From an uncultured virus (IMG/VR IMGVR_UViG_3300045953_000067) (Duplodnaviria > Heunggongvirae > Uroviricota > Caudoviricetes), in the IMG/VR virus record IMGVR_UViG_3300045953_000067: a stretch of 64,000 nt of DNA, one strand, 5' to 3'. This document shows, one piece after another, positions 696 to 56,194 of the stretch. The position numbers were made by a program, and so were the translations under genes. Numbering within the stretch: position 1 is the first letter of the stretch; each line of letters opens with the position of its first letter. The notes beneath the pieces are model-generated. The model ran no database searches and was not told where the DNA came from. It saw only the letters and a program-made list of their open reading frames with translations.

Positions 696-1463
696 ATGCC
701 CAATTTGCGCCTACTCCTGACGAACTTCTACGACGACGCCTCGACGGTCCTGTCGGCCTCGACGGAGGCGGCCGGTCTGCCGGTCGGGAACTCGAAGACG
801 ACCGACCGGACGGCCGTCTGGCGCTCGACCACGGGCACGGGCACGCAGACGATCGACATCGACCTCGGCTCGGCGCAGTCCATGACCTGCGTCGCGATCG
901 CGAACCCGAAGATCCTCGGGGCCGGGGCGATCGAGGTCTACGAACGCGGGAGCGCGGGCTCGCCGGGGTCGGCGAACCTCGTCGCGACGCTCCCGGCGAT
1001 CGAGGTCGAGACCCGGATGCACTACGTCTTCTTCAACGCGAACAGCAAACGGCACTGGCAATTGAAATGGACGAACCCTGGCGGCGCGAACGACTACGCC
1101 GAGGCCGGCTACGTGTTCCTCGGGACGTTCATCGAGCCGGCGGTCAACGTCCGGGCACCGTTCCAGGTGTCCCGCGTCGACCCGTCGGTCTCTCGGATGT
1201 CGGTCGACGGGCAGCAGAGCTTCGCGACGCGGACGAAGTACTACGCCGGGGCGTGGCAGTTCTATAACGCGCCGGAGGCGGACCTGACGAACCTCCGGAC
1301 GATCTTCCGGACGATCGGGGTGAACACGCCGATCTTCGCCGTGCTCGACACGTCGATCGCGTGGATGGCCTGGTTCCTCCGGATCACGAACGCGCTCGGG
1401 GTGAACCCGGAGGAACTCGTCGGACGGTACACGCCTGAGATCGCCTGGGAGGAGGCGCGGTAA
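696..1463 (+). CDS. Tail tip / distal-tail-like protein (A)
   Basis: Directly after TMP; ortholog at 48544-49311. Confidence 0.7.
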   Translation: MPNLRLLLTNFYDDASTVLSASTEAAGLPVGNSKTTDRTAVWRSTTGTGTQTIDIDLGSAQSMTCVAIANPKILGAGAIEVYERGSAGSPGSANLVATLPAIEVETRMHYVFFNANSKRHWQLKWTNPGGANDYAEAGYVFLGTFIEPAVNVRAPFQVSRVDPSVSRMSVDGQQSFATRTKYYAGAWQFYNAPEADLTNLRTIFRTIGVNTPIFAVLDTSIAWMAWFLRITNALGVNPEELVGRYTPEIAWEEAR

Positions 1464-3341
1464 ATGGCGCCGACTTTTGCAGAGTTCCTCACCTGGCCGA
1501 CGCGCGAGGAGGTCATCCTCTGCGAGCTCACACCGTCGCTGACGGTGACTGGCTGGACGCTGCAAACGGGCAGCACGTACAAGGCGGCCCTCTCGCGGTT
1601 CGACACGGCCGCGGGCTTCTCAGTGTATCGGCGCGTCGTGGCGGTCTGGCAGAACGCGACGGTCCTGACGGCGCAGACCTCGATCCCGAACGTCGACGCG
1701 AACCCCGGATCGTACTGGTGGGACGAGACGAACTCCCTCCTCTACGTGCGGACGACGAGCGGGGCCGACCCGGACACCTTCACGGCGATGCAGGCCTTCG
1801 TCACGTTCTACTGCGGCTCGAAGGGGATCGTCCTGAACCGCACGGACGGGAGCCCGGACACCGGGATCTACTATCAGCCCTGGGTCACGACGGACCTCCC
1901 GAGCGCGATCTTCACGATCGACGACCCGGTCTCAGGCGCGAAGACGGCGGCGACCGCGGAGCTTGCGCTCCTGAACGGGCACGGGTTCTTCCACTACGCC
2001 TATCGCAATTACAACTGGCGGAACAAGAAGGTCAAGCTGTTCCTCGGCGGCGACTACAACAGTCAGGCGCTCCTCCGCTCACAGTACACGTCGTGTCTGA
2101 CGATGGTCGTCGAGAACCTCGCGCCGAACGAAGACGTCTGTCGGTTCACGCTCAAGCCACAACTCCGGCTCCTCGACCAGTCGATCCCGGTGACGCCGTT
2201 CTTCACGGACTCGTATCCGAACCTCGGCGACGGGGTGCTCGGGACACGCAAGTGGATCGGCTATGGACGGGCGACGATCGCGCCTGACCTGACCGACATT
2301 CTCACGAGTTACGGGGTGTGGACTCTCGCGGATGCCGCGTATCAGACCCTCTTCGCGATCAATGCGGTCTATGCGATCAAGCGGGACAACACCGAAGGCC
2401 CGCAAGGGCTGACGGTCGGGATCCACTACACGCAAGACCTGACGGCCTGCACGATCACGATCACGGATCCGGCCTACAGCTACCAGGACTACCGGCTGTC
2501 GGTCGACGTGACCGGGAAGCCGGACGGGGGCGGGAGCTACTTCAAGACCTTCTCGGCGATCACGAAGGATCTGCTCACGACGTTCCTCGGCGTCTCCTCG
2601 ACGGACATCGACACGACGGCCTTCACGAATGCCGCGGCGGACGCGCCGCAAGAGCTATCGCTCTGGGTCAAGGACCAGCGGAGCCTCGCGTCGATCCTCG
2701 CGACGACCGAAGAGGATCAGCCGGCGCTCGAGCGGTCCGTGCTCGGCCGCATTCTCCAGACGCCGGCCGGGCTCTGGACGTGCTCGATCTTCCAGCCGGG
2801 CGGCTCGGCGACGGCATCGCTCAGGAAGGAAGACCTCGCGCGGTTCGAGTGCATTCCGGTGCTCGACGCCATTGCTCCGACGGTCGAGATCCAGTACGCC
2901 CACGACCACGACGCGGACACCTGGAAGAGCACGTCGAAGACGACGAGCCTCGTGCAATACGTCGCGGAGACGACGAACCGGATCGTCCTGAAGACGTTCC
3001 TCCGGAACCCGTCCGACGCCGAGGTGCTCTGCTCGCGGATGGCGCGGTTCCTCGCGGTCACGCCGGTGACGGCCGAGTTCGAGGAGCGCGGCACGCTCCT
3101 CGCGACGGCGCTCCCTGGTGACAAGGTGTCCGTTACGTACAGCCCGGCGCCCGGGGTCGGCGGGGCGTTCTCGGCGACGCTCTTCGAAATCGCGGAACTC
3201 GAGCGAAGCCTTCGGCCGGCGCTGACCATCAGCGGGAGACTCGTTATCAACCCGCTCGAGAGCAGTGGGGTCTACGGGAAATGGCTGACCGGGGCCGGGG
3301 CCGGACATTGGGGCGGCGGTTCGCCTACGCAGTGGTACTGA
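1464..3341 (+). CDS. Tail tip hub-like protein (A)
   Basis: 625 aa, position in tail module; ortholog at 49315-51192. Confidence 0.7.
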   Translation: MAPTFAEFLTWPTREEVILCELTPSLTVTGWTLQTGSTYKAALSRFDTAAGFSVYRRVVAVWQNATVLTAQTSIPNVDANPGSYWWDETNSLLYVRTTSGADPDTFTAMQAFVTFYCGSKGIVLNRTDGSPDTGIYYQPWVTTDLPSAIFTIDDPVSGAKTAATAELALLNGHGFFHYAYRNYNWRNKKVKLFLGGDYNSQALLRSQYTSCLTMVVENLAPNEDVCRFTLKPQLRLLDQSIPVTPFFTDSYPNLGDGVLGTRKWIGYGRATIAPDLTDILTSYGVWTLADAAYQTLFAINAVYAIKRDNTEGPQGLTVGIHYTQDLTACTITITDPAYSYQDYRLSVDVTGKPDGGGSYFKTFSAITKDLLTTFLGVSSTDIDTTAFTNAAADAPQELSLWVKDQRSLASILATTEEDQPALERSVLGRILQTPAGLWTCSIFQPGGSATASLRKEDLARFECIPVLDAIAPTVEIQYAHDHDADTWKSTSKTTSLVQYVAETTNRIVLKTFLRNPSDAEVLCSRMARFLAVTPVTAEFEERGTLLATALPGDKVSVTYSPAPGVGGAFSATLFEIAELERSLRPALTISGRLVINPLESSGVYGKWLTGAGAGHWGGGSPTQWY

Positions 3342-3345
3342 GGGT

Positions 3346-3816
3346 ATGAGCTACGACGCGACGACGACGCCTTCGTCTGGTGACGACACGCAACTCGCGG
3401 ACTACACGCGCCTCCGCGATAACGACAAGTCCCTCGCGGGCTCTGGGTCGTCGCACGACCTCGGCGGGTCGCTGAACAAGTTCGTCGAGGATACCTCCTT
3501 CGTCGACCTGCCGGACGGCTGGGATCTGGAGATTGACGGGACGCAACTCGGCGGCCGGACGGTGAAGCTTGAGTTCAACGTCATCGGCGAAACAGGGACC
3601 GCGGTCACAGTGAACGTGCGGCTCTTCAACATTACGGACGCGGGCGCGGTGGCGTCCTCGGATACTGCGGTCGTCAATCCAGGCACAACGCGGACGCGCG
3701 GGATCTCGAGTGCGCTGACGCTCCCGACGGCGGCGAAGCGATACAAGGCGCAAATCAAGGGCTCGGTCGGCGCGGCTGCGAAGGTCGCCGCGCGTGCGCG
3801 GGTGATTATCACATGA
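3346..3816 (+). CDS. Minor tail protein / fibre adaptor (A)
   Basis: N-terminal SGD..LADYTRLRDN motif typical of tail fibre anchors; ortholog at 51204-51674. Confidence 0.6.
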   Translation: MSYDATTTPSSGDDTQLADYTRLRDNDKSLAGSGSSHDLGGSLNKFVEDTSFVDLPDGWDLEIDGTQLGGRTVKLEFNVIGETGTAVTVNVRLFNITDAGAVASSDTAVVNPGTTRTRGISSALTLPTAAKRYKAQIKGSVGAAAKVAARARVIIT

Positions 3817-4973
3817 AGAAGCCTCTCATTCTGGCTGCCGTGCTCTCGTGCGTGGTCGCGGCGGCGCTCGTCGCGCAGACGATCACGGACGTCCATCTCG
3901 GGAAGGTCCGGATCAACTCGACGGCCTCGGACGCGCTCTGCGTCGGGAGCTCCGGCGGATCCTCGCCGACGTGTACGGGCGGGATCAAGGCGGATGATGC
4001 CGTGTTCGGGAATACGGTGGCGATCGGCACGTCGGCGACCGTGGCGAGTTGGGTCTCGCTGTCGTCAGGGGTGATCCGTGTCTCGAACGGGAGCACACAG
4101 GGGGTGCTGCAAGCCTTCGACGCGTCCTACCGGCCGCTGTTGATCGACGGCTCGACCCTCAATTTCTACATCAGCGGCGCGGAGAAGGGGCGGATGCACG
4201 CCTCTGGCGGCTTCTCCTGGGGCGACACGACAGATCCGGGAAGCACCAACTTTCGCGTTGCCGGCCAGCTCCGTCCGGCGGATGGATCGGTGTCCGCTCC
4301 AGCGTATAGCTTCGGCTCGGATACAAACACCGGCGTGTATTCAATTTCCGGAGACCTCCTCGGTTTCGCAATCGGTGGAATCGAGGGCGTTCGCATCGGG
4401 AAGACTGGGACCGGGAATCCCTACATCTCGATCAATCCGGCCGCGTGGGGAACCGGGGCGGTGAGCGGTGGCTACCTGTCTCTCGGGAGGAATACCTCCG
4501 GGAATGGCGCTCCCGGTGTCATTGCGTACGGCGATCAATCGGGCACGTTTTGGTACTCGTGGGCTGATACGTCTGGCAACCTCCGGATTTCGAGCGGCGG
4601 GACCTATCCAGAGGAGGACGGTACGCCCTCTGAGACCTCCGGGACCGTCGTTGGCACGCAGACGTCAACGCGGGATACGAAAAACTTGCTCGGCGCGTTC
4701 ACGGACTATCGCGGCGCGCTCGACCTGATCACGCAAGTCCCGATCTACCGGTTCACGTACAAGAGCGGCGCCTACGGCGGAACGATCTTCACGGGCATCA
4801 TCGCCGATGAACTGCCGGTCGTGATGATGGACCCGGATCCCGCGCATCCGGAGGGCCGATCGTTCTCGCCGGTCTCGGCCTTCGGCTACACGGCCGCGGC
4901 GATCAAGGCGCTTCAGGCTGAGATCGAAGAACTGCGCGCGGAAGTCCGCGACCTGAAAGCGAGGCAGCGATGA
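3813..4973 (+). CDS. Tail fibre/spike with C-terminal S74-type intramolecular chaperone and N-terminal signal peptide
   Basis: STRDTK..YRFTYK..GIIADEL..AAIKALQAEIEEL chaperone motif; MKK-hydrophobic-LVA|Q N-terminus. Confidence 0.8.
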   Translation: MKKPLILAAVLSCVVAAALVAQTITDVHLGKVRINSTASDALCVGSSGGSSPTCTGGIKADDAVFGNTVAIGTSATVASWVSLSSGVIRVSNGSTQGVLQAFDASYRPLLIDGSTLNFYISGAEKGRMHASGGFSWGDTTDPGSTNFRVAGQLRPADGSVSAPAYSFGSDTNTGVYSISGDLLGFAIGGIEGVRIGKTGTGNPYISINPAAWGTGAVSGGYLSLGRNTSGNGAPGVIAYGDQSGTFWYSWADTSGNLRISSGGTYPEEDGTPSETSGTVVGTQTSTRDTKNLLGAFTDYRGALDLITQVPIYRFTYKSGAYGGTIFTGIIADELPVVMMDPDPAHPEGRSFSPVSAFGYTAAAIKALQAEIEELRAEVRDLKARQR

Positions 4974-5221
4974 CCCCTGGCAACGGGAACGGCTGGAAGA
5001 CGCCGGCGATCGGGGCGCTCTGGGCGATCCTGCTCCTCCTCGCGGGCTGGTTTGTTCAGGACTCCGCGGCCTTCCGGTCGGAGATCACGAAGCAGATCGG
5101 CGAGAGCACGGCGCGGATCGCAGTGCTCGAGGAGGCGAACCGCAACATTCGTGAATCCCTCGCGCGGATCGAGGCGGGCGTCGCGCGGCTGAGCGAGCAG
5201 CAGCAGGAGCGGCGCCGGTGA
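4970..5221 (+). CDS. Single-TM coiled-coil protein, holin/antiholin-like (A)
   Basis: One TM segment plus coiled coil, immediately before the endolysin. Confidence 0.55.
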   Translation: MTPGNGNGWKTPAIGALWAILLLLAGWFVQDSAAFRSEITKQIGESTARIAVLEEANRNIRESLARIEAGVARLSEQQQERRR

Positions 5222-5676
5222 CGGACGAGCAGGCCGTCGCGGCGCTCGATGACGCCCAGGCCGTCGCGCTGACGCTCTGGGGCGAGGCGCGCAACCAGGC
5301 GATCGAGGGGCGCTTCGGCGTCGCGAGTGTCATCCGGAACCGGGTCCAGGCGCAGCGGCCGTCGTTCGGGCTCGGGTTCAAACAGGTCTGTCTGAAGGCG
5401 TGGCAGTTCTCGACCTGGCTCCCGCAGGGCGGCGAGCAGAACTACCGACGGACGATGGACACGGCGAAGACCGTCGTCGCGGGGCTCGAGCTCCCGGCGC
5501 TCGTGCGCGAGTGTCTGTGGATCGCCGACGGCCTCATCGCCGGGGCGTTCGGCGACACGGTGCGCGGGGCGAACCACTATCTCACGCTCGACCTGTACCG
5601 GACGACGCCGCCGAAGTGGACGCAGGGCGTCACGCCCACGATCCAGATCGGCGATCACGTGTTTTTGAAGTTATGA
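5218..5676 (+). CDS. Endolysin, SleB/Hydrolase_2 cell-wall hydrolase (A)
   Basis: LWGEARNQ..GVASVIRNRV..QFS..GANHY..IGDHVF motifs. Confidence 0.88.
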   Translation: MTDEQAVAALDDAQAVALTLWGEARNQAIEGRFGVASVIRNRVQAQRPSFGLGFKQVCLKAWQFSTWLPQGGEQNYRRTMDTAKTVVAGLELPALVRECLWIADGLIAGAFGDTVRGANHYLTLDLYRTTPPKWTQGVTPTIQIGDHVFLKL

Positions 5677-7034
5677 GTTCGACGATCCTCCCGGGCTCCT
5701 ATTGCGACGTCTGTCGCGTCCCGGGCGGGTATGCCTTCGTGCGAACCCAGGACAAGACCGTCACGTGTGACGTGAACGGCGTCTTCCTGTGGCGCGTCCA
5801 CGGGCCGGAAGTCCTGATGGAGGTCCGATGCTCGGCGCTCCCGGATGGCACCGTCGTCGCGGTCTGCAAGGGCAACGAGACCGGGACCGCGTATGTCACG
5901 GTCGATGGGCGGGCGCTCCGATCGGCGGCGCCGGTCTTCGGGGTCCAGTCGGTCGCGGTCGAGGGCGCCTGGCTGTACTTGATGCGCTCGGCGACGGTGC
6001 TCGAAGTCCTGTCGGTCAGCGGCGAGATCGTCGATATGCGCGCGGTCATGCCGACGTCGCAGGGGATCCGGGACGTCGTCGACGGCGAGGTCCGGATGGC
6101 CGATGACTGGTACGTGCGACAGGTCGGGACACTGCGACTGCATCAGGTCGTGGCGCGGCCGGGGATCATGATCGGGCAGGCGGATCCGTCGCAGATCGCC
6201 GGAGAGTGGCAGGGCGGCTACTTCACGGCGATCGAGGGCGTCGCGTTCGAGCCGCATCTCGCGGCCCTCGACAACGGCCGGTTCGCGATCTGCGCCAGGA
6301 CGCCGGCGGGCGCGGCGCTCGCGATCGTGCCGCCATATCCAGCCCTCGTGACCGGCTCGGCGCCGCTCCCTGACCCGCAACCGGAACCCAGACCTATGCC
6401 TCAGCCTGACGTCGCTCGTCTGACCGATACACAGTTCGCGACGCTCGAGCGAGAACGCGCGAAGTTCTCCGCCGAGACCCTGACGCCGGAGGAGATCGGG
6501 ATCATCCTGAACGCCACGGCATTCGCGCACCGGCACGATCCGGATCAACAGCTCGGGCTGCAACGGAAGGATCACGGCACGCGGGCGATCCAGCCGGTGA
6601 CGGGCGTCGGGATCTGGAACGGCCTCCGGATCATCCGGGACGGGACGCACTACGGCGGCGACGTGTGCGGGTCGTGTTCGATCGGGCGGTTCGTCCCGGT
6701 GCGCGCGGACTTCCTGCCGGCCGAGCCGGTCGGGCCGAACGGGTTCGTCGAGCCGGTGATGACGTCCGCCCAGCCGACGCCAGACCCGGCGCCGGCGCCG
6801 AACCCGGCGCCGCCCGCAGCGGATCTCGGGCCGGTCCTCGCGCAACTCGTCGAGATCAACAACGCGCTCGGGCTGCTCTTGCAAGGGCAGGCGCAACTGA
6901 GCGAACAGTTCGCGGCGCTGCGGGCGCTCGTGATCCGGCCGACGCCGACGCCGGCGCCGGCGGTGTCCTTCCCGGACTATCAGGCGCGCATTCTCGGACA
7001 GACGGTCACGCTCCGACCGATGGTGAAACCATGA
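5673..7034 (+). CDS. Lysis-cassette protein: beta-rich N-domain, GLQRK domain, Pro linker, coiled coil
   Basis: ATG overlaps endolysin stop; central domain homologous to 53009-53569. Confidence 0.65.
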   Translation: MSSTILPGSYCDVCRVPGGYAFVRTQDKTVTCDVNGVFLWRVHGPEVLMEVRCSALPDGTVVAVCKGNETGTAYVTVDGRALRSAAPVFGVQSVAVEGAWLYLMRSATVLEVLSVSGEIVDMRAVMPTSQGIRDVVDGEVRMADDWYVRQVGTLRLHQVVARPGIMIGQADPSQIAGEWQGGYFTAIEGVAFEPHLAALDNGRFAICARTPAGAALAIVPPYPALVTGSAPLPDPQPEPRPMPQPDVARLTDTQFATLERERAKFSAETLTPEEIGIILNATAFAHRHDPDQQLGLQRKDHGTRAIQPVTGVGIWNGLRIIRDGTHYGGDVCGSCSIGRFVPVRADFLPAEPVGPNGFVEPVMTSAQPTPDPAPAPNPAPPAADLGPVLAQLVEINNALGLLLQGQAQLSEQFAALRALVIRPTPTPAPAVSFPDYQARILGQTVTLRPMVKP

Positions 7035-9985: not shown

Positions 9986-10378
9986 TCAGCGTCCAGGCGG
10001 CAACCATCCGCCGTCGCGACAGGTCCAGTCCGGCCCCGGCTGAACGGTCGAGCACGTGCCGGCGGGCGGGTTCGGGTTCGGGTTCGGGACGACGAACACC
10101 GGGATCGGAACCTGCCCTTCCTTTCCCAGGTCGTGCACGTTGAAGTAGCGTCGAGCGGTGACGCTGCCATCTCCGCATGTGAAGAACACGATCAGCGTCT
10201 TGTCGTACACAATCGGGGCTGAGCTCGACACGAACCCGCCGGGGCAGGCGCGATCCAGGGCCGGCAGGCGCCGGTCGGTGTAGGCCGCGAAGATGTCAAA
10301 GACAAACGTCTGCGCGGCGAGGCCGCCGGCGCACACCACGAGCAAGCACGCAGCGACGGCGAGGAACAGGCGCTTCAT
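9986..10378 (-). CDS. Exported Cys-rich protein next to attP (A)
   Basis: GGGAGG RBS, signal peptide, C-terminal C..PGPDWTCRDGGWLPP; ortholog in B. Confidence 0.8.
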   Translation of the reverse strand: MKRLFLAVAACLLVVCAGGLAAQTFVFDIFAAYTDRRLPALDRACPGGFVSSSAPIVYDKTLIVFFTCGDGSVTARRYFNVHDLGKEGQVPIPVFVVPNPNPNPPAGTCSTVQPGPDWTCRDGGWLPPGR

Positions 10379-10410
10379 GGGATGCCTCCCGGATCGACTC
10401 CTCGCAGTTT

Positions 10411-10681
10411 GTCCCACAGATCGGACAGATTGCCGTCCCACAGGAGCCGCAAGGCGATCCGCGTTGTGAGGCCGTATTTATTGGGGATTATTGCTGGTGA
10501 GCCGCGAAGGAATCGAACCTTCAACCCGCAGATTAAGAGCTCACTCGATGCGCCCCAGTCAGGCCCCGGTTTTCCGCATCGAACCACGCGATCAACGATC
10601 CGCCGCTCTCGCAGGAGAGCGGCGAGTTTGCTTCGACATTTTCACGATCCGAGACGGACGTTCCACAGATTTTCCCACAGG
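10411..10681 (+). repeat. Putative integrase arm-type sites (TCCCACAG/TTCCACAG) flanking attP A
   Basis: Copies near 10412, 10436, 10661 and 10673, two on each side of the core. Confidence 0.6.
10495..10539 (-). other. attP core A: 3' half of tRNA-Lys(CTT)
   Basis: Reverse complement CTCTTAA-TCTGC..GGTTCGATTCC..CTCACCA; 5' half absent; next to integrase 3' end. Confidence 0.9.
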
Positions 10682-11866
10682 TCGCTTGATGACATCCGCG
10701 ACGGGCATCCGGGCGCCGAGCGCCTCGAGCGGGGCCGTCTCATCGGCCGCGACGAGGTGTGTGTATATCTGGGTCGTCGTCAGGTCAGCGTGTCCCATCA
10801 GCCGCGCGCGGAGCGCCTCCGGGAGGCCCATGCGCGCGAGCTCGGTCGCCATCGTGTGCCGGAGCGAATGAAACGTGACGCCCTTCGCTCGGCCCCACAG
10901 GAGCGCCGGCGCGACGGGCTTGCCCGTCGCCTCCGACTGGCGCTTCGCGATCGCGCCCGCGGCGGCCTGGACGGCGTGCTTCAGGGCGGTCTTGATGTCG
11001 TCGACGTGCTTGCCGCGGTAGTGCACCACGTATCGCCCGCGGCGGTGCGCCTGCGCGGTCTCGAGCACGGCCCGGAGTTCCTTCGACACGTTCACGACGA
11101 GTGGGAGGCCGGTCTGTCGATCGGTCTTGTGGTCGGGGTCGACGATCTGTGTCAGTGACTCGTCGACGTGCTCGCCCCACTTCAGGTCGAGGATGTTCCG
11201 GAGGCGGAGCTTCGGGGCGAGCGCGCCGATCCCGAGGGCGATCCCGACGTGCGCCGGCGCTTGGGTGATGATCTCGCGGAGCTGCTCCAGGGTGAAGGTC
11301 CGGATCCGCTTCGGGACGCGATCGCGGATCCCGCGCTCGAAGGGGTTCTCGCGGACCTGGCTCCGCTTCCGGTGCGTCGGCATCAGCCCGACCCGATAGA
11401 GCGCGCTGCACGCCGAGCGGTAGGCATTCCGCCGGCTGCCGCTCAACTTCCGCGCGTCCATCCAGAGTTCGAACTTCTCCAGCCATTCCGGATCGGCGAT
11501 CGGGTCGCCGAGTCGGAGGTTGTGATACGGCGCCGGCTCGTCGACGGGCTCCTCCTTCGTCGGCCGCCGGCCCCAGAACGCGAGGATCATCTTCAGGTTG
11601 ATCTTGAACTGTTCCGGGCGCTTCAACTTCTTGCGCTTGACGGCGTGTGTGTAGGTCGCGCCGGCCCATTCGGTGAAGGTGGGCGTGTCCTCGGGCCCGG
11701 CCGGGTCTAGGCCGGCTTTCCGGCGCCTGAGCTTCGCGCGGAGCGCGGCTTCGAAGGCGTCGGCGTCGGCCTCGGTCGTGACGAACGTCGACCCCGTATG
11801 CCGCTGGCCGAAGAGCCAGAAGTCATAGCGGTACGTCACGCAGTCCCGCGGGCGAAAGACGGTCAC
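10592..11866 (-). CDS. int: Tyrosine integrase (A)
   Basis: R..K..HSLRH..GH..Y catalytic set; GTG start overlaps upstream TGA. Confidence 0.92.
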   Translation of the reverse strand: MTVFRPRDCVTYRYDFWLFGQRHTGSTFVTTEADADAFEAALRAKLRRRKAGLDPAGPEDTPTFTEWAGATYTHAVKRKKLKRPEQFKINLKMILAFWGRRPTKEEPVDEPAPYHNLRLGDPIADPEWLEKFELWMDARKLSGSRRNAYRSACSALYRVGLMPTHRKRSQVRENPFERGIRDRVPKRIRTFTLEQLREIITQAPAHVGIALGIGALAPKLRLRNILDLKWGEHVDESLTQIVDPDHKTDRQTGLPLVVNVSKELRAVLETAQAHRRGRYVVHYRGKHVDDIKTALKHAVQAAAGAIAKRQSEATGKPVAPALLWGRAKGVTFHSLRHTMATELARMGLPEALRARLMGHADLTTTQIYTHLVAADETAPLEALGARMPVADVIKRPVGKSVERPSRIVKMSKQTRRSPARAADR

Positions 11867-12126
11867 GCGAGCTCCGGACGTGTCAGGTGTCGCAGGCGTG
11901 GCCCGTCTGGCGGAGCGGCGCTGTCGAACACGCGCGCGTTGGTGCGGACATCGTCGGCGACAGTTCGCGTCCACCGACGGTCCGCGAGGATGGCGACGGC
12001 GTGCTCCTCGGCCTCCCGCCGCGAGCTCGCGCTTCGGACGAAGTACGGCCCGTCGTCCATCCGCTGGCCCCGATACCCGAAGACGAAGAAGAGACCGGTC
12101 GGCTGGCCACCGTTGATGATTGTCAT
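11863..12126 (-). CDS. Hypothetical protein
   Basis: Coupled to integrase start. Confidence 0.5.
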   Translation of the reverse strand: MTIINGGQPTGLFFVFGYRGQRMDDGPYFVRSASSRREAEEHAVAILADRRWTRTVADDVRTNARVFDSAAPPDGPRLRHLTRPELA

Positions 12127-12131
12127 CCGTT

Positions 12132-33872: not shown

Positions 33873-34466
33873 ACTCCCGGATCGGGCTCGTTCGCGGACT
33901 ACGCCAAGCATCGAGGCGTCAGTCGGAACGCGGTCTCGAAAGCCCTGAAGAAGGGCTGGCTCGCCGAGGCGCTCGGCGACCGGGGCGGGCGACCGTTCGT
34001 CCGGGACTTCGCCGCGGCGGATCGGTCCTGGGACGCGCATTCCGACAAGACCCGGGCCTCGATCCGGGAGAAGGAGCGGCCGGACTCGAGCGCGGCTCTG
34101 CCGGATGCTGACCGCACGCGTGGTCCAGAGGTGCACGTCGTCGAGCCTGAGGAGCAGCCTCCGGTCCTGTCGCCGGCGATGTCGCTGACGGACGCGACGA
34201 AGGCCGACAAGTACTGGTCGGCGATGCGGAAGAAGCAGGAGTTCGAGAAGGCCTCCGGCGAGCTCGTGCACGCAGCCGATCGGGATCTCGCGGAAACGAC
34301 CCGGATCGCGTTCGCGAAGACGAAGATCCTCGCCGTGCCGAGCCGGATCAAGGCGGGTCTGCCGCACTTGTCGCATTCGGACATCGCGACGATCGCCGGG
34401 CTGCTGCGAGAGGCGCTCGAGGAACTCGGCACGCCGTCGCCGCCCGCGAAGGGAGCGGCCGCGTGA
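33855..34466 (+). CDS. terS: Terminase small subunit (Nu1-like)
   Basis: N-terminal HTH (YAKHRGVSRNAVSKA), GELV..LAVPSRI..EALEEL. Confidence 0.85.
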   Translation: MSTAVDTPGSGSFADYAKHRGVSRNAVSKALKKGWLAEALGDRGGRPFVRDFAAADRSWDAHSDKTRASIREKERPDSSAALPDADRTRGPEVHVVEPEEQPPVLSPAMSLTDATKADKYWSAMRKKQEFEKASGELVHAADRDLAETTRIAFAKTKILAVPSRIKAGLPHLSHSDIATIAGLLREALEELGTPSPPAKGAAA

Positions 34467-36448
34467 TCCCGGCGCTCGACTCTCCCGTGATGTCGGCCTG
34501 GCTGGCGCCGCGACGGTTGAAGCTCTCGGATTGGGCTGATGAGTTCTTCTACCTGTCCGCCGAGTCGGCCGCGGAGCCGGGACGCTGGAAGACGCTCCCG
34601 TACCAGCGCGGGCCGATGGACGCGATCACGGATCCGCTCGTCGAGTCGGTCGCCTTCATGAAGTCGGCGCGGGTCGGCTACACGAAGATGCTGAACGCGA
34701 CGGTCGGGTACTACATGCACAACGATCCGTGTCCGATCATGATCGTCCAGCCGACGATCGAGGACGCGGAGGGGTATTCGAAGGAAGAGATCGCGCCGAT
34801 GCTCCGGGACTGCCGGGCGCTGACGCCGCTCGTCTCGGATCCGAAGTCGAAGGACGGCGAGAACACGATCCTGCACAAGCTGTTCCCTGGCGGGTCGCTG
34901 TCGATGGTCGGGGCGAACAGCGCGCGCGGGTTCCGGCGCGTCTCGCGAAAGGTCGTCGGGTTCGACGAGACCGACGGGTATCCTCCATCGGCCGGCACGG
35001 AAGGCGATCAGATCAAGCTCGGCATCCGCCGGACGGAGTACTACTGGGACCGCAAGATCATTTACGGGAGCACGCCGACGATCGCCGGGCTGAGCCGGAT
35101 CGAGCGGTTGTTTCAGGCGGGCGACCAGCGACGCTACTACGTGCCGTGTACGCAGTGCGGCGCGATGGACTATCTCACGTTTCGCCGCGAGACGACGGAA
35201 GACGGGGAGCCACGCGGGCATTTCATGCACTGGCCGAAGGATCAGCCGGCGCGCGCGCACTTCATCTGCCGGACCTGTGGCGGGGTTATCGATCACAAGG
35301 ACAAGCGAGCGATCGTCGAGGCCGGCGAGTGGCGGGCGTCAGCCCCGTTCAACGGGCACGCGTCGTTCCATATCTGGGCGGCCTACAGTTACTCGCCGAA
35401 TGCCACGTGGGGGCATCTCGCCGCGGAGTTCCTCGAGGCGAACGCGGGCGGACCCGAGCAACTGAAGACGTTCGTCAACACGGTCCTCGGCGAAACGTGG
35501 CAGGAGCGCGGCGAGGCGCCTGAATGGGAACGGCTCTATCACCGGCGCGAGGACTACGAGATCGGGACGTGTCCCGCGGGCGTGCTCTTCCTGACGGCCG
35601 GCGTCGACGTCCAGAAGACGCGGCTCGTGTACGAGGTCGTCGGCTGGGGGCGCGGGAAGCGGTCGTGGTCGGTCGACTACGGGATCCTCGAGGGCGACAC
35701 GTCCGACGAGTCGGAGACGGGCCCGTGGTTCGACCTGAACGCGCTCCTCGCGCGGTCGTATCAGTCGGCGCTCGGCGTCATGCTGCCGATCCTCCGGCTC
35801 GCGGTCGATTCCGGCTTCAACACGCAGGTCGTCTACAACTGGGCGCGACAGCATCCGCTCTCGCGGGTCATCGCTGTGAAGGGCGTCGACACCGGGAGCG
35901 TGCTCATCGGGACGCCGTCCGTCGTCGACGTGTCGGCGAAGGGCCAGAAGTTGAAGCGGGGGTATCGGGTCTGGCCGGTCGTCGGGAGCATCGCGAAGTC
36001 GGAGCTCTACGGCTGGCTCAAACTGGGCCGCCCGACGGACGAAGCGCGCGAGGTCGGCGCGACCGAGCCTCCCGGGTTCTGTGCGTTCCCGATGCACGGT
36101 GAGGACTACTTCAAGCAACTGACGGCGGAACAACTTGTGAAGCGGTCGACCCGCACCGGGTTCGTCAAGCTGACCTGGGAGCCGATCCCGGGCCGCGAGA
36201 ACCACGTGCTCGACTGCCGGGTGTATGCACGGGCGGCCGCGGCGGTCGTCGGGATCGATCGGTTCCAGGAGTCGGACTGGCGGAAGCTCGAGGCCGGCGC
36301 GGGCGGCGTGCAGCCGACCGTCCGTCAGGGGCAACCGACGCCGCGTCCGGCGACGCGGGACACGGCGCCGACCTCGGCGCGGGCGACACCAGGGAAAACG
36401 CAGGGCTGGCTCGGCGGCGGTCGTGGGTCGTGGCTGAAGGGACGGTAA
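34463..36448 (+). CDS. terL: Terminase large subunit, GpA family
   Basis: KSARVGYT, FDETD, GSTPT, GVDVQ, AVDSG, NHVLDCRVY. Confidence 0.95.
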   Translation: MIPALDSPVMSAWLAPRRLKLSDWADEFFYLSAESAAEPGRWKTLPYQRGPMDAITDPLVESVAFMKSARVGYTKMLNATVGYYMHNDPCPIMIVQPTIEDAEGYSKEEIAPMLRDCRALTPLVSDPKSKDGENTILHKLFPGGSLSMVGANSARGFRRVSRKVVGFDETDGYPPSAGTEGDQIKLGIRRTEYYWDRKIIYGSTPTIAGLSRIERLFQAGDQRRYYVPCTQCGAMDYLTFRRETTEDGEPRGHFMHWPKDQPARAHFICRTCGGVIDHKDKRAIVEAGEWRASAPFNGHASFHIWAAYSYSPNATWGHLAAEFLEANAGGPEQLKTFVNTVLGETWQERGEAPEWERLYHRREDYEIGTCPAGVLFLTAGVDVQKTRLVYEVVGWGRGKRSWSVDYGILEGDTSDESETGPWFDLNALLARSYQSALGVMLPILRLAVDSGFNTQVVYNWARQHPLSRVIAVKGVDTGSVLIGTPSVVDVSAKGQKLKRGYRVWPVVGSIAKSELYGWLKLGRPTDEAREVGATEPPGFCAFPMHGEDYFKQLTAEQLVKRSTRTGFVKLTWEPIPGRENHVLDCRVYARAAAAVVGIDRFQESDWRKLEAGAGGVQPTVRQGQPTPRPATRDTAPTSARATPGKTQGWLGGGRGSWLKGR

Positions 36449-36452
36449 GGCG

Positions 36453-36671
36453 ATGGCATTCACAGCGGAAGACGTCGAGGCGCTCGAGCGGGCGATCGCG
36501 GACGGGCGCGGGGCGAAGACGATGACGTTCGGCGATCAGTCGGTCACGTTCAACTCGATCGCGGACATGCTCGCCCTCCGCGACAAGATGCTCGGCATCG
36601 TGGCGGCTGAAGAAGCGGCGGCGACCGGCACGAGCCGGACCCGGTTCGCGGCGACGAGTAAAGGCGTATGA
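36453..36671 (+). CDS. Head completion protein gpW-like
   Basis: LERAIADG..V.F.S..DM; between terL and portal. Confidence 0.8.
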   Translation: MAFTAEDVEALERAIADGRGAKTMTFGDQSVTFNSIADMLALRDKMLGIVAAEEAAATGTSRTRFAATSKGV

Positions 36672-38737: not shown

Positions 38738-38805
38738 CCGTCACAATGACGGCCCGTCAAGTTGACGGGTTCACAACTCTCGCCGCAGGTTCGACCATGA
38801 ACCTG
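38738..38805 (+). promoter_or_regulatory. Two CCGTCA-N3-TGACGG palindromes plus TTCACA-17-GACCAT promoter
   Basis: Sites at 38738-38752 and 38754-38768; -10 lies 6 nt before capsid GTG. Confidence 0.65.
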
Positions 38806-48543: not shown

Positions 48544-49311
48544 ATGCCGAACCTGCGGTTATTGGTCACGAACGTCTACGACGACGCCTCGACGGTGCTC
48601 ACGGCCTCGACGGAGGCCGCCGGGCTCCCGGTCGGGAACTCGAAGACGACCGACCGGACCGCGGTCTGGCGCTCGACGACTGGCACGGGCACGCAGACGA
48701 TCGACATCGACCTCGGCTCGGCGCAGTCGATGACCTGCGTCGCGATCGCGAACCCGAAGATCCTCGGCGCCGGGGCGATCGAGGTCTACGAACGCGGCTC
48801 GGCCGGCTCGCCTGGCGCCGCGAACCTCGTCGCGACGCTACCGGCGCAGGACAGCGATACCCGTCTGACCTACGTCTTTTTCAACGCGAACAGCAAACGG
48901 CACTGGCAACTGAAATGGACGAACCCGACGGCGGCGAACGACTACGCCGAGGCCGGGTACGTGTTCCTCGGGACGTTCATCGAACCGACGGTCAACGTCC
49001 GGGCGCCGTTCCAGGTGGCGCGCGTCGACCCGTCGATCTCGCGGATGTCGGTCGACGGGCAGCAGAGCTTCGCGACGCGGACGAAGTACTACGCCGGGGC
49101 GTGGCAGTTCTACAACGCGCCGGAGGCGGACCTGACGAACCTCCGGACGATCTTCCGGACGATCGGGGTGAACACGCCGATCTTCGCCGTGCTCGACACG
49201 TCGATCGCGTGGATGGCCTGGTTCCTCCGGATCACGACCGCGCTCGGGGTGAACCCGGAAGAACTCGTCGGGCGCTACACGCCCGAGATCGCCTGGGAGG
49301 AGGCGCGCTGA
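48544..49311 (+). CDS. Tail tip / distal-tail-like protein (B)
   Basis: Ortholog of 696-1463. Confidence 0.7.
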   Translation: MPNLRLLVTNVYDDASTVLTASTEAAGLPVGNSKTTDRTAVWRSTTGTGTQTIDIDLGSAQSMTCVAIANPKILGAGAIEVYERGSAGSPGAANLVATLPAQDSDTRLTYVFFNANSKRHWQLKWTNPTAANDYAEAGYVFLGTFIEPTVNVRAPFQVARVDPSISRMSVDGQQSFATRTKYYAGAWQFYNAPEADLTNLRTIFRTIGVNTPIFAVLDTSIAWMAWFLRITTALGVNPEELVGRYTPEIAWEEAR

Positions 49312-51192: not shown

Positions 51193-51203
51193 GGGGCTGA
51201 GAC

Positions 51204-51674
51204 GTGAGCTTCGATTCAACGACGACGCCGGCATCCGGGGACGACACGCAACTCGCGGACTACACGCGCCTCCGGGACAACGACCGCTCGCTCGCCGGCG
51301 CGGGGCAGTCGCACGACCTGGGCGGGTCGCTCGACAAGTTCGTCGAGGATACGACCGAGGTCGACCTGCCGGACGGGTGGGATCTAGAGATCAACGGGGC
51401 CGAGCTCGGCGGCCGGACCGTCAAGCTCGAAGTGAATGTCATCGGCGAGACGACGACGAACGTGACCGTCACGGTGCGCCTGTGGAACATCACGGACGCT
51501 GGCGCGGTCGCCTCATCGGCCGTTGCGGTCGTGAACCCCAGCACGACCCGCACGCGCGGAGTCTCAGGCGCTCTGACGCTGCCGGCGGCGGCGAAGCGGT
51601 ACAAGGCGCAAATCAAGGGCTCTGTCGGCGCGTCGGCGAAGGTCGCGGCGCGCGCGAGGGTGATCATCACATGA
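51204..51674 (+). CDS. Minor tail protein (B)
   Basis: Ortholog of 3346-3816. Confidence 0.6.
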   Translation: MSFDSTTTPASGDDTQLADYTRLRDNDRSLAGAGQSHDLGGSLDKFVEDTTEVDLPDGWDLEINGAELGGRTVKLEVNVIGETTTNVTVTVRLWNITDAGAVASSAVAVVNPSTTRTRGVSGALTLPAAAKRYKAQIKGSVGASAKVAARARVIIT

Positions 51675-52201
51675 AGCGACATTTCCTCCCGTTGGCGGTC
51701 GTCTGTGCGTTCTTCGTTGCGACGGCGCTCGTCGCGCAGACGGCGACGGATCTCCATCGCGGCAAGGTCCGGATCGGATCGACGGCGACGGATGCGCTCT
51801 GCGTGGGGAGTTCCGGCGGGGCCTCGCCGACCTGCACGGGCGGGGTGAAGGGCGGCACGCTCGCGATCTCGAATATCGGGGTCAACTCGACAAGCGACGT
51901 CACGCTCTCCAATAACCTGATGGACGCGACCGGGACGCCCTCTAGGCAGTCGGGGTGCGGCGGCGGAGGCGCGACGGCTGGACGTGATTATGCCTTCACG
52001 CAGTCCAGAGGGGGCGGCACGGACACGAATTGCGTGATGCTCTTCGGGCATACGTGGAGCACGGCGCCAGTGTGCGTCGCCTCCATCCAGAACGGGAACG
52101 TCCCGGTCACGACCATCAACGCGTCGACGACGGGTGTCACGCTGTCGTACGCCAGCACATCCAGTTCGGAGACGTTCCAGGTGCTCTGCCGGAGTTATTG
52201 A
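51671..52201 (+). CDS. Signal-peptide receptor-binding-like protein with Cys-rich lectin-like C-domain (B)
   Basis: N-terminus shared with 3813-4973; F..W..APVCVAS tip. Confidence 0.75.
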   Translation: MKRHFLPLAVVCAFFVATALVAQTATDLHRGKVRIGSTATDALCVGSSGGASPTCTGGVKGGTLAISNIGVNSTSDVTLSNNLMDATGTPSRQSGCGGGGATAGRDYAFTQSRGGGTDTNCVMLFGHTWSTAPVCVASIQNGNVPVTTINASTTGVTLSYASTSSSETFQVLCRSY

Positions 52202-52204
52202 GCC

Positions 52205-52911: not shown

Positions 52912-52916
52912 GCGAA

Positions 52917-52997
52917 GTTGCGGGGCGGATCGTAGCTGGTACTCGGCGGCGGACAACTGAGGGGTTTTCCGGTGTCGGGTTCACCCCGCCCCGCAAC
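52917..52997 (+). ncRNA. tRNA-like structured element (degenerate)
   Basis: 12-bp terminal stem; ends resemble initiator tRNA; no canonical anticodon arm or CCA. Confidence 0.45.
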
Positions 52998-53008
52998 GCT
53001 TTCGGAGG

Positions 53009-53569: not shown

Positions 53570-53571
53570 CG

Positions 53572-56188: not shown

Positions 56189-56194
56189 GCCAGC

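What the first reader, a model, noticed from the sequence alone, without database searches (positions are those of the whole stretch)
3813..4973. Tail-fibre/receptor-binding proteins with Sec-type signal peptides and a conserved Cys pair
Seen: the last tail gene starts MKKPLILAAVLSCVVAAALVA|Q in A and MKRHFLPLAVVCAFFVATALVA|Q in B (51671). The leader sequences differ but keep signal-peptide character, followed by a conserved DALCVGSSGGxSPTCTGG. Known: tailed-phage virion proteins normally fold in the cytoplasm without signal peptides. Inference: the fibre is exported, oxidised in the periplasm and joins the virion at or after lysis, or acts as a receptor-masking protein.
Basis: partly seen in the sequence, partly recalled or inferred. 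Interest (0 to 1): 0.8.

Follow-up and report, generated by a model that had tools for sequence, protein, structure and literature searches.

The report
Secretion-signal-bearing phage tail fibre
The only tail-fibre gene of these soil prophages starts with an ordinary bacterial secretion signal and carries paired cysteines, so the fibre probably folds outside the cytoplasm and joins the virus particle only when the cell bursts, which is not how tailed phages are thought to be built.

Summary
ORF 3813-4973 (386 aa, fibre A) and ORF 51671-52201 (176 aa, fibre B) are the last tail genes of two related lambda-like prophages. Both start at an ATG that overlaps the stop of the upstream 156-aa gene. 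Both open with a Sec-type leader ending LVA|Q, then share a conserved 40-residue module with a Cys pair, then have unrelated C-termini.

Four results argue that the leader is a real, cleaved signal:
- All 24 true members of the N-module family carry a leader ending in Q.
- Three other N-module types exist with and without a leader; the leaderless proteins start at the predicted cleavage site.
- Leader-bearing relatives have even cysteine counts (37 even, 4 odd); leaderless ones do not (14 even, 39 odd).
- Unrelated secreted proteins of the phage use the same A-Q ending, which is enriched in leaders of a related Acidobacteriota genome.

Fibre A ends in an S74-type self-cleaving chaperone domain. 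A complex model docks the new N-terminus onto a trimer of the leaderless 156-aa protein (0.79 against 0.00 in controls).

Best reading: an exported, disulfide-bonded distal fibre that plugs into a cytoplasmic adaptor at lysis. The timing is inferred. My searches found no paper on this; the scan noted it before on other DNA.

The parts
3813..4973 (+). Fibre A, 386 aa: leader, N-module, shaft and distal beta domain, self-cleaving chaperone domain
   Evidence: ORF. phrog_1980 tail fiber, E 1.1e-5. 105 homologs. AF2 model with mean pLDDT 76.7.
3813..3875 (+). Sec/SPase I-type leader of fibre A, residues 1-21 (MKK, a 16-residue hydrophobic core, LVA|Q)
   Evidence: Sequence. Modelled as helix 3-19. 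Leader kept in 24 of 24 family members. Its codons are the most diverged stretch between A and B.
3876..3989 (+). Conserved N-module of the mature fibre, residues 22-59, with the Cys43-Cys54 pair; predicted docking surface
   Evidence: Q22, T37 and A38 invariant in 31 sequences. Interface residues 23-29, 33, 35, 47-50 in the complex model. A/B DNA similarity ends at 3990.
3990..4664 (+). Shaft and distal beta-rich domain of fibre A, residues 60-284; the variable host-range part
   Evidence: Unrelated to fibre B. Beta strands 115-261 at pLDDT 64-93. Weak VIA matches to the T4 gp34 and S16 gp37 fibre regions, Z 4.0-4.3.
4665..4973 (+). S74-type intramolecular chaperone/autoprotease domain, residues 285-386, with Ser285 and Lys290, plus the stop codon
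   Evidence: G281, Q283, S285 and K290 invariant in 54 sequences. VIA matches: MyRF ICA Z 7.5, endosialidase chaperone 3gw6 Z 6.3, T5 fibre 4uw8 Z 5.1, 3gud Z 5.1. Pfam PF13884 at 17 bits, below the 22-bit cut-off.
3346..3816 (+). 156-aa leaderless protein A: proposed trimeric adaptor on the tail tip that receives the fibre N-terminus
   Evidence: ORF. 85% identical to copy B and 55% to L007. Complex model 0.79 against 0.00 in controls. No Pfam or PHROG family. Its own AF2 model is poor (pLDDT 54).
51204..51674 (+). 156-aa adaptor, copy B
51671..52201 (+). Fibre B, 176 aa: leader (residues 1-22), the same N-module (23-60), then a small Cys-rich head domain with no S74 domain
   Evidence: Head-domain relatives P0100 and P0108-P0113 share GTDYAF...FGHTW.TAPVC...LCR[SG]Y. 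Six Cys in the mature part.
696..1463 (+). 255-aa tail-tip protein (distal-tail-protein position), copy A
   Evidence: Follows the tape measure protein. phrog_8610, E 5e-16. Homologs in L007, L056 and L088.
1464..3341 (+). 625-aa tail-tip protein (tail-associated/hub position), copy A
   Evidence: phrog_8917, E 1.7e-15. 42-45% identical homologs in L056, L088 and L007.
4970..5221 (+). 83-aa protein with one TM segment and a coiled coil (holin- or spanin-like); its start overlaps the fibre stop
   Evidence: Weak hit to phrog_214 Rz-like spanin, E 0.004.
5218..5676 (+). Endolysin (cell wall hydrolase, Hydrolase_2) without a leader
   Evidence: PF07486, E 2.8e-11. phrog_938 endolysin.

Best explanation
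Fibre A and fibre B are the distal, receptor-binding parts of a two-piece tail fibre of two related lambda-like siphovirus prophages.

Proposed pathway:
1. Each fibre is made from the late tail/lysis operon as a precursor with a Sec signal peptide.
2. It is exported across the inner membrane and cut by signal peptidase I between Ala and Gln, leaving an N-terminal Gln.
3. It folds and trimerises in the oxidising periplasm, where its paired cysteines form disulfides.
4. In fibre A, trimerisation is helped by a C-terminal S74-type chaperone domain that then cuts itself off at Ser285.
5. The new N-terminus (QT.TD.H.GKVRI.STA.DALC...C.TGG) plugs into a trimer of the leaderless 156-aa protein, which sits on the cytoplasmically built tail tip.
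6. Because the two compartments meet only when the holin opens the inner membrane, the fibre would be added to the particle during or just after lysis.

Shown here (in silico): the leader and its retention, the Q at +1, the cysteine pattern, the chaperone fold and its Ser/Lys dyad, the operon context, and the modular swap of the C-terminus.
Modelled: the docking to the 156-aa trimer.
Inferred only: actual export and cleavage, disulfide formation, presence in virions, and the time of joining.
For: Start and operon.
- The ATG overlaps the stop of the 156-aa gene in both copies and has GGTGAT 6 nt upstream.
- The next gene overlaps the stop of fibre A.
- No promoter-like site, and no terminator-like site between tail gene and fibre, in 3000-5800 or 50800-53700.

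Leader.
- 24 of 24 true hits of the exhaustive N-module search carry it. Five of them (P0125, P0126, P0127, P0130, P0133) matched only from profile position 26-30 onward, so they were found without the leader columns.
- Q22 is invariant in 31 sequences.
- Between A and B the leader core diverged while the flanks stayed about 90% identical.

The leader is a discrete add-on.
- Three other N-module types occur in both forms, and the leaderless proteins start 1-2 residues from the aligned cleavage site. Examples...LAAQ|STITRTTW against MAASTITRTTW...AQ|SWTAPRTW against MAWTTPRTW...AQ|ITAPYTF against MSITVPYTF.

Oxidative folding.
- Script-flagged leader-bearing proteins have mature Cys counts of 0 (11), 1 (1), 2 (22), 3 (3), 4 (11), 6 (4).
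- Leaderless proteins have 0 (27), 1 (31), 2 (10), 3 (6), 4 (4), 5 (1), 7 (1).
- Even against odd is 37/4 and 14/39, Fisher p = 3e-10.
- The Cys in DLLCASS of 5 of 5 leader-bearing proteins is F or Y in the 4 aligned leaderless relatives.
- Extra Cys pairs in the fibre B head family appear or vanish together.

Host-style signal.
- The same A-Q ending occurs on unrelated secreted ORFs of the window: 9986-10441(-) and 53009-53569.
- It occurs in 18 of 56 flagged leaders of a 300-kb sample of Acidobacteriota genome G394, against 12% of control windows.
- It matches the Q-rule of SPase I substrates (PMC5837995, abstract and passages).

Fibre identity.
- PHROG tail fiber.
- The chaperone domain matches MyRF ICA (Z 7.5), 3gw6 (Z 6.3), 4uw8 (Z 5.1) and 3gud (Z 5.1). 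S285 and K290 are invariant.
- A/B similarity breaks at about residue 59.

Virion link.
- The complex of 3 x 156-aa protein with 3 x fibre residues 23-100 scored 0.79, best of 3 controls 0.00. That mark was reached by 116 of 157 solved complexes and 2 of 215 mismatched pairs. The runs share at least 73% of contacts and the partner pLDDT is at least 79. The interface uses fibre residues 23-29, right after the cleavage site.
- The calibration holds only roughly here, because my own alignments and three copies of each chain were used.
- Among phages with 42-54% identical 255-aa and 625-aa proteins, the 156-aa gene is present with a leader-bearing type-I fibre in 3 of 3 (A, B, L007). It was not found by tblastn in the 2 with leaderless fibres (L056, L088).
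- No other fibre-like gene was found in the complete prophage B.
Against: - Nothing here shows export, cleavage, disulfides or presence in particles; all evidence is sequence-based or modelled.
- No signal-peptide predictor could be run.
- Position -3 is Leu, which is tolerated but not the commonest residue there.
- Three leader-bearing relatives have odd mature Cys counts (P0114, P0117, P0133).
- The Cys statistics count related sequences as independent.
- Eleven leader-bearing relatives have no Cys at all, so disulfides cannot be the only reason for export.
- A fibre in the periplasm and a tail in the cytoplasm pose a real assembly problem, and I know of no experimental precedent for it in tailed phages.
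- The co-occurrence with the 156-aa gene rests on five loci.
- The AF2 model of the 156-aa protein alone is poor (pLDDT 54), and its fold matches to fibre N-termini are weak.
- The Pfam hit to Peptidase_S74 is below the curated cut-off (17 against 22 bits).
- The host is not identified. Acidobacteriota is a lead from one phylum sample (8 of 401 genomes hit, best 45% identity), with no other phylum searched for comparison.
Confidence: 0.6

Rival explanations
1. The protein is exported but is not a virion part. It would be a fibre-derived periplasmic or surface protein that binds the phage's own receptor, or its precursor, in the producing cell. That would block superinfection, or keep progeny from sticking to debris, in the way of T5 Llp or phi80 Cor (both recalled). 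The 625-aa tip would be the real adsorption device.
For: - All the evidence for export fits this reading equally well.
- It avoids the topological problem of joining a periplasmic fibre to a cytoplasmic tail.
- Genes for exported proteins can sit among tail genes, for example lambda lom (recalled).
Against: - The gene is translationally coupled to the 156-aa tail gene and to the lysis genes, with no promoter-like site, so it is made late and not in the lysogen.
- It is the only fibre-like gene of the complete prophage B.
- The mature N-terminus is modelled to dock on the leaderless 156-aa protein, 0.79 against 0.00.
- Related phages carry a leaderless fibre at the same place.
- The conserved N-module with a swapped C-terminus is the signature of virion host-range cassettes.
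- The sigma-70 scan may not fit this host.
Confidence: 0.2
2. The hydrophobic N-terminus is not a secretion signal. The fibre stays in the cytoplasm, and the three N-terminal helices of the trimer form an uncleaved hydrophobic plug or membrane-active tip within the tail.
For: - It keeps assembly in one compartment, as in all studied tailed phages.
- AF2 models residues 3-19 as a helix.
- No predictor or experiment shows cleavage.
Against: - The leader sequence is poorly conserved while its partner and the following module are 85% identical. A docking helix should co-vary with its partner and not drift.
- Gln is invariant right after a small residue in 31 of 31 sequences.
- Leaderless relatives start exactly behind the leader.
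- Cys parity is even only in leader-bearing proteins.
- The same ending occurs on unrelated secreted proteins.
- The modelled docking uses residues 23-29 and needs no leader.
Confidence: 0.08
3. The protein is a cell-surface fibre of the lysogen, an adhesin in the manner of the Bdellovibrio MAT fibres, carried as cargo by the prophage.
For: MAT fibres combine a signal peptide, a conserved N-terminal domain, variable tips, and both S74 and non-S74 C-termini (PMC10769870, passages read). That is the same plan as fibres A and B.
Against: - Coupling to late genes.
- The N-module here is about 40 residues, not the roughly 130-residue beta-rich domain of MATs.
- No route across the outer membrane is evident.
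- The modelled partner is a leaderless phage protein.
Confidence: 0.05
4. The start codon is wrong: translation begins downstream of the leader.
For: In-frame GTG codons occur at residues 10 and 14 of fibre A (read).
Against: - These GTG codons are absent from fibre B.
- The ATGA overlap and the GGTGAT motif are conserved in both copies.
- Every one of 24 family members, called independently on other contigs, has its own start upstream of a leader.
- There is no ATG, GTG or TTG near Gln22.
Confidence: 0.02

Closest known systems
Tail fibres and spikes with a C-terminal intramolecular chaperone (Peptidase_S74): K1F endosialidase (3gw6), T5 L-shaped fibre pb1 (4uw8), GA-1 gp12 (3gud)
   Same: Fibre A has the same C-terminal fold (Z 5.1-6.3) and an invariant Ser...Lys pair with S+5 spacing. 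It sits in the fibre position of a tail module.
   Different: These proteins have no signal peptide and are taken to fold in the cytoplasm (recalled). Fibre A has a leader, a Gln at +1 and a Cys pair. The Pfam score is below the cut-off.
Bdellovibrio bacteriovorus MAT fibres (PMC10769870)
   Same: Sec signal peptide, a conserved N-terminal anchoring part, swapped C-terminal tips, and both S74 and non-S74 members (passages). Fibre A is the S74 type and fibre B the non-S74 type.
   Different: MATs are chromosomal genes of a predator and sit on its own surface. Their conserved N-domain is about 130 residues. Here the genes lie inside a prophage tail/lysis operon, and the 40-residue N-module is modelled to bind a phage protein. 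Only weak shaft matches were seen to the Bd fibres (Z 3.0-3.5).
Q-rule substrates of signal peptidase I in Bacteroidetes (PMC5837995, PMC10653852), and Q-rule proteins of Porphyromonas gingivalis phages (PMC10367356)
   Same: Cleavage that exposes an N-terminal Gln. The Porphyromonas phage paper reports five phage genes of unknown function with such signals (passage).
   Different: The abstract of PMC5837995 calls the rule specific to Bacteroidetes. The relatives of this phage found here lie in Acidobacteriota genomes. The Porphyromonas phage genes are not described as tail fibres in the passages I read.
Adaptor-borne, two-piece receptor-binding fibres of tailed phages, with a conserved N-terminal anchor and a swapped distal part
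   Same: The conserved N-module with exchangeable C-termini, the break of similarity at about residue 59, and a separate small protein as the docking partner.
   Different: In known cases both pieces are cytoplasmic (recalled). Here only the distal piece carries a secretion signal.
Exported phage proteins that mask receptors (T5 Llp, phi80/N15 Cor) or sit among tail genes (lambda Lom, Bor); all recalled
   Same: Phage-encoded, exported, and encoded next to receptor-binding genes.
   Different: Those are small lipoproteins or outer-membrane proteins with no fibre architecture. Fibre B has no lipobox, and the position of the leader Cys is not conserved in the family.

Membership tests
Sec / signal peptidase I signal peptide | Positively charged n-region, an uninterrupted hydrophobic h-region of about 10-16 residues, and small residues at -1 and -3 | tested here: met
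   A: MKK, then 16 uncharged residues, then L-V-A|Q. B: MKRH, then 16 uncharged residues, then L-V-A|Q. -1 is Ala; -3 is Leu, which is tolerated. Judged by eye and by a hydropathy script, not by SignalP.
Sec / signal peptidase I signal peptide | Not a lipoprotein (no lipobox) and not a Tat signal (no twin arginine) | tested here: met
   A has V-L-S-C in the middle of the h-region. B has A-V-V-C, which does not fit the lipobox as I recall it. A leader Cys is present in only some relatives and at varying positions. There is no RR in either n-region.
Sec / signal peptidase I signal peptide | Actual translocation and cleavage | not testable with these tools
   Needs reporter fusions or N-terminal proteomics.
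Q-rule substrates (N-terminal Gln after cleavage) | Gln at +1 | tested here: met
   Q22 invariant in 31 of 31 aligned sequences. All 24 true N-module hits end the leader with Q.
Q-rule substrates (N-terminal Gln after cleavage) | A host glutaminyl cyclase and cyclisation to pyroglutamate | not tested
   The host genome is not held. No search for a cyclase was made.
Peptidase_S74 / intramolecular chaperone domain (fibre A only) | Sequence match above Pfam's gathering score | tested here: not met
   PF13884: 17 bits against a cut-off of 22, E 0.0075, residues 300-336 only.
Peptidase_S74 / intramolecular chaperone domain (fibre A only) | Fold of the chaperone domain | tested here: met
   The four best VIA rows are all chaperone domains: 7dc3 (Z 7.5, rmsd 2.4, 91 aligned), 3gw6 (Z 6.3), 4uw8 (Z 5.1) and 3gud (Z 5.1), over model residues 293-386 at pLDDT above 90. 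The Z values are middling by the tool's own note.
Peptidase_S74 / intramolecular chaperone domain (fibre A only) | Catalytic Ser and Lys five residues apart (SDxxxK-type motif, PMC10769870) | tested here: met
   S285-T-R-D-T-K290. S285 and K290 are invariant in a 54-sequence alignment.
Peptidase_S74 / intramolecular chaperone domain (fibre A only) | Self-cleavage after trimerisation | not testable with these tools
   Needs expression and SDS-PAGE, with a Ser285 mutant as control.
Virion tail fibre / receptor-binding protein | Encoded in the tail module, downstream of the tape measure and tip proteins and upstream of lysis genes | tested here: met
   The same order is seen in L007.
Virion tail fibre / receptor-binding protein | Physical attachment to a tail protein | tested here: inconclusive
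   The model supports binding to the 156-aa trimer (0.79 against 0.00), but a model is not a measurement. The place of the 156-aa protein on the tail is itself inferred.
Virion tail fibre / receptor-binding protein | Presence in purified particles and a role in adsorption | not testable with these tools
   Needs induction of the prophage and virion proteomics.
Bdellovibrio MAT fibre family | [quoted passage not shown] | tested here: inconclusive
   The conserved module here is about 40 residues. No sequence comparison with MAT N-domains was made. Only shaft-level VIA rows were seen for the Bd fibres (Z 3.0-3.5).
Superinfection-exclusion lipoproteins (Llp/Cor type) | Lipobox and small size | tested here: not met
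   No lipobox in B. The mature proteins are 365 and 154 residues long with fibre architecture.

The most novel reading that the evidence does not exclude
Tailed-phage particles can be finished across two compartments. The tail, with a small adaptor trimer, is built in the cytoplasm. The receptor-binding distal fibre is exported by Sec, trimmed by the host signal peptidase, and oxidised in the periplasm. It snaps onto the adaptor only when the holin opens the membrane.

The switch between the cytoplasmic and the exported route is evolutionarily easy: add or drop a leader at the exact N-terminus. It has happened repeatedly in at least four N-terminal module types of one large family of soil-phage fibres.
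Probability: 0.5. Interest if true: 0.85.

Novelty: new variant of a known kind. Interest (0 to 1): 0.74.

Why it matters
Textbook morphogenesis of tailed phages takes place wholly in the cytoplasm. A receptor-binding fibre that matures in the periplasm would add a new assembly step, joining at lysis.

It would also:
- explain how phages of diderm hosts can use disulfide-stabilised adhesins;
- mean that host export, signal peptidase and disulfide-bond enzymes are host factors for infectivity;
- change how such fibres should be expressed for structural work or engineered host range, namely in the periplasm and without the leader.

The paired leader-bearing and leaderless relatives make the question directly testable.

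Tried and rejected
- Isolated phages: tblastn of fibre A against 50,697 records found no match.
- N-module region search (residues 23-70) in the word-indexed protein collection found only the protein itself among 7 candidates. The exhaustive profile search was needed.
- The 54-sequence alignment had no stretch conserved enough for locus scans (error). A 12-sequence alignment was used instead.
- N-module locus scans found nothing confirmed in viral contigs or in metagenome contigs.
- The genome-contig scan gave only 6 loci, from mixed MAGs, all leaderless or 5'-incomplete. It did not name the host.
- The window's own assembly is not held. No tRNA gene was found in the window to mark an attachment site.
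- Homology between the 156-aa protein and the N-terminus of the leaderless G394 fibre: hhalign probability 0.2%, not supported.
- The profile of the 156-aa protein found nothing among PDB sequences at E <= 1. Its AF2 model is poor, so the BFVD rows (fibre and depolymerase N-termini, E 2e-4 to 1e-3) are only a weak lead.
- Foldseek on the whole fibre A model gave no row at E <= 0.001. The chaperone match became clear only with VIA.
- Lipoprotein, Tat and internal-start readings were considered and rejected (see Membership tests and Rival explanations).
- The papers PMC12923769, PMC12210884 and PMC5723332 were opened for signal-peptide passages and hold nothing on exported fibres.
- A lead from earlier scan notes, leader-bearing virion proteins of Cellulophaga phages, was not followed up. 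One paper search with the phage's name failed on a syntax error and the next found nothing relevant.
Full report
**What is there**

The window holds a tandem series of related lambda-like siphovirus genomes.
- Copy A is partial: its tail end runs to the integrase at 10592-11974 (-).
- Copy B is complete, about 12132-58251.
- A third copy starts near 59078.

Copy B encodes these proteins:

| Protein | Coordinates |
|---|---|
| Terminase | 34463-36448 |
| Portal | 36668-38266 |
| Protease-capsid fusion | 38805-40811 |
| Tape measure | 45840-48539 |
| 255-aa protein | 48544-49311 |
| 625-aa protein | 49315-51192 |
| 156-aa protein | 51204-51674 |
| 176-aa fibre B | 51671-52201 |
| 81-aa TM/coiled-coil protein | 52205-52450 |
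| Hydrolase_2 endolysin | 52447-52911 |

Copy A has the same order, with the 386-aa fibre A at 3813-4973. The nearest held record is a 47,974-bp virus contig with direct terminal repeats that carries fibre A at 100% identity.

Both fibres start at an ATG that overlaps the stop of the 156-aa gene (ATGA). GGTGAT lies 6 nt upstream.

Both open with two or three basic residues, 16 uncharged hydrophobic residues, and L-V-A followed by Gln. The next 38 residues are nearly identical and include the Cys pair in DALCVGSSGG.SPTCTGG.

After about residue 59 the proteins are unrelated. At DNA level the 89.7% identity between the copies runs from the tape measure gene to position 3990 and resumes at 4982. 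That is the pattern of a host-range cassette swap.

Within the conserved block, the leader codons 3-17 are the most diverged stretch, yet they stay hydrophobic.

**Is the leader a real signal?**

Four independent lines say yes.

*1. Retention.* A profile of the first 70 residues was run over 1.84 billion representatives and found 25 proteins at E <= 0.001.
- One (P0119, 1183 aa, 70 Cys) matched only the leader columns and is spurious.
- The other 24 all carry an N-terminal leader that ends in Gln.
- These include five that matched only from profile position 26-30 onward, so they were found without the leader columns.
- In a 31-sequence alignment Gln22 is one of three invariant positions.

*2. 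The leader is a discrete add-on.* Among the 105 homologs of fibre A, three other N-terminal module types occur in both forms. The leaderless proteins begin one or two residues from the position aligned with the cleavage site:
- ...LAAQ|STITRTTW against MAASTITRTTW;
- ...AQ|SWTAPRTW against MAWTTPRTW;
- ...AQ|ITAPYTF against MSITVPYTF.

*3. Cysteines.* A script flagged 52 of 132 collected proteins as leader-bearing. By eye P0079 is a false positive, and P0115, P0121 and P0127 are missed.

| Set | Cys counts (number of proteins) |
|---|---|
| Flagged as leader-bearing, mature part | 0 (11), 1 (1), 2 (22), 3 (3), 4 (11), 6 (4) |
| Not flagged | 0 (27), 1 (31), 2 (10), 3 (6), 4 (4), 5 (1), 7 (1) |

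- Even against odd is 37/4 and 14/39, Fisher p = 3e-10.
- With the four hand corrections it becomes 40/3 and 13/38. No new test was run on these.
- Related sequences are counted as independent, so the p-value overstates the case.
- The effect is seen in several unrelated modules. The Cys of DLLCASS in 5 of 5 leader-bearing proteins is Phe or Tyr in the 4 aligned leaderless relatives. In the fibre B head family a second Cys pair is present or absent as a pair.
- An even-count bias is the known signature of exported, DsbA-oxidised proteins (recalled).

*4. The ending is the local style of secreted proteins.*
- Unrelated ORFs of the window with leaders end the same way: 9986-10441 (-) ...GGLAAQ|T and 53009-53569 ...LSAQ|A.
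- In a 300-kb sample of Acidobacteriota genome G394, which carries a related prophage, 18 of 56 heuristically flagged leaders have [AGS]Q in the c-region, against 12% of control windows.
- This is the Q-rule described for Bacteroidetes SPase I substrates (PMC5837995, abstract and passages; PMC10653852, abstract).

No signal-peptide predictor was available.

**What kind of protein is it?**

- Fibre A hits PHROG tail-fibre families. Its Atlas neighbours are viral Peptidase_S74 clusters.
- The AF2 model (mean pLDDT 76.7) has a leader helix at residues 3-19, an unconfident stretch at 21-110, a beta-rich part at 115-261, and a confident C-terminal domain.
- The four best VIA rows are all intramolecular chaperone domains: MyRF ICA (Z 7.5), K1F endosialidase chaperone (Z 6.3), T5 L-shaped fibre (Z 5.1) and 3gud (Z 5.1).
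- Ser285 and Lys290 are invariant in 54 sequences. They have the spacing of the SDxxxK motif (PMC10769870, passage).
- The Pfam score is below the curated cut-off. I therefore call it S74-type by fold and dyad, not by Pfam.
- Fibre B lacks this domain. It ends in a small head shared with P0100 and P0108-P0113 (GTDYAF...FGHTW.TAPVC...LCR[SG]Y). Its Atlas neighbours are small viral proteins, including tail-fibre tips.

**Is it a virion part?**

- The gene is coupled on both sides, to the 156-aa gene upstream and to the lysis genes downstream. No promoter-like site, and no terminator-like site between tail gene and fibre, was found. The sigma-70 model may not fit this host.
- It is the only fibre-like gene of the complete copy B.
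- A complex of three 156-aa chains with three copies of fibre residues 23-100 scored 0.79; the best of three controls scored 0.00. That mark was reached by 116 of 157 solved complexes and 2 of 215 mismatched pairs. The runs share at least 73% of contacts and the partner pLDDT is at least 79. The counts hold only roughly, because my own alignments and several copies were used.
- The interface uses fibre residues 23-29, 33, 35 and 47-50, which is the stretch exposed by cleavage.
- Phages with 42-54% identical 255-aa and 625-aa proteins fall into two sets. A, B and L007 have a 156-aa homolog followed by a leader-bearing fibre of this N-module type. G394 (L056) and L088 have no 156-aa homolog by tblastn at E <= 1e-5 and carry a leaderless fibre.
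- That is five loci, so it is a lead and not a rule.

**Mechanism proposed**

The fibre is exported by Sec and cleaved before Gln. It folds oxidatively and trimerises in the periplasm, and fibre A then self-cleaves at Ser285. The mature fibre docks on the 156-aa adaptor of the finished tail once the holin has breached the inner membrane.

The last step is inference from topology alone. The main rival is an exported fibre-like protein that never joins the particle and instead masks the receptor (0.2). Minor rivals are an uncleaved hydrophobic N-terminus (0.08), a lysogen surface fibre like the Bdellovibrio MATs (0.05), and a wrong start codon (0.02).

**Comparison and novelty**

- The closest known exported fibres are the Bdellovibrio MAT proteins: signal peptide, conserved N-domain, and S74 or non-S74 tips (PMC10769870, passages). 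They are cellular surface proteins.
- Phage genes that obey the Q-rule were noted in Porphyromonas gingivalis phages, but as genes of unknown function (PMC10367356, passage).
- Five full-text searches found no paper describing a Sec-exported tail fibre of a tailed phage. I saw listings and abstracts, and opened three papers for passages. Subscription journals are largely outside the library.
- This scan has noted the same phenomenon before on other DNA: 106 notes in at least 98 genomes, one with an adaptor stub like the one here. I read those notes after forming my own view, and they are mostly unchecked.
- I file the finding as a new variant of a known kind: an S74-type or modular tail fibre routed through the periplasm.

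**Limits**

- The host is not identified. Acidobacteriota is a lead from one phylum sample (8 of 401 genomes hit by the 625-aa protein, best 45% identity), with no other phylum searched.
- All evidence is computational.
- The complex job used residues 23-100, one residue short of the predicted mature N-terminus at Gln22.

Noticed in passing
window 1-64000; junctions near 11975-12131 and 58252-59077: Three related phage genomes lie head to tail, with integrases at 10592-11974(-) and 56893-58251(-). Copies A and B are 73-90% identical in the aligned stretches. The nearest virus record is a 47,974-bp contig with terminal repeats. This is either a tandem polylysogen or an assembly that strings population variants together. 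No tRNA gene marks an attachment site.
   Followed up: partly
window 9986-10441 (-) and about 55805-56250 (-): Next to each integrase lies a small secreted protein with a leader ending LAAQ|T or AVAQ|D and conserved cysteines (...ACPGGF..., ...FFTC.DG..., ...C..V.PG.DW.C.DGGWLPP). The copies are 73% identical in DNA between A and B. It looks like a lysogeny-side cargo gene of unknown function.
   Followed up: no
loci L059-L073 (genome G394, Acidobacteriota sample): Many SPase I-type leaders in this genome end with A/G/S followed by Gln: 18 of 56 flagged leaders against 12% of control windows. The paper that defined the Q-rule calls it specific to Bacteroidetes in its abstract. The rule may reach further than described.
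   Followed up: partly
window 51851-52198; proteins P0100, P0108-P0113: The head of fibre B belongs to a small C-terminal tip family (GTDYAF...FGHTW.TAPVC...LCR[SG]Y). The family is found on fibres with at least two different N-modules. It has one conserved Cys pair and a second pair that is present or absent as a pair.
   Followed up: partly
window 53009-53569 (copy B) against 5673-7034 (copy A): After the endolysin, copy B has a 186-aa protein with a leader (…LSAQ|A) and a C-terminal coiled coil, which is spanin-like. Copy A has an unrelated 453-aa ORF with no family hit at that place.
   Followed up: no
loci L114, L143, L124/L125: More distant S74-type fibre relatives from low-GC contigs also start with leaders, but these do not end in Gln (…GVVSA|AN, …PMAEA|AC). 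Leader-bearing fibres are therefore not confined to hosts with the Q ending.
   Followed up: no
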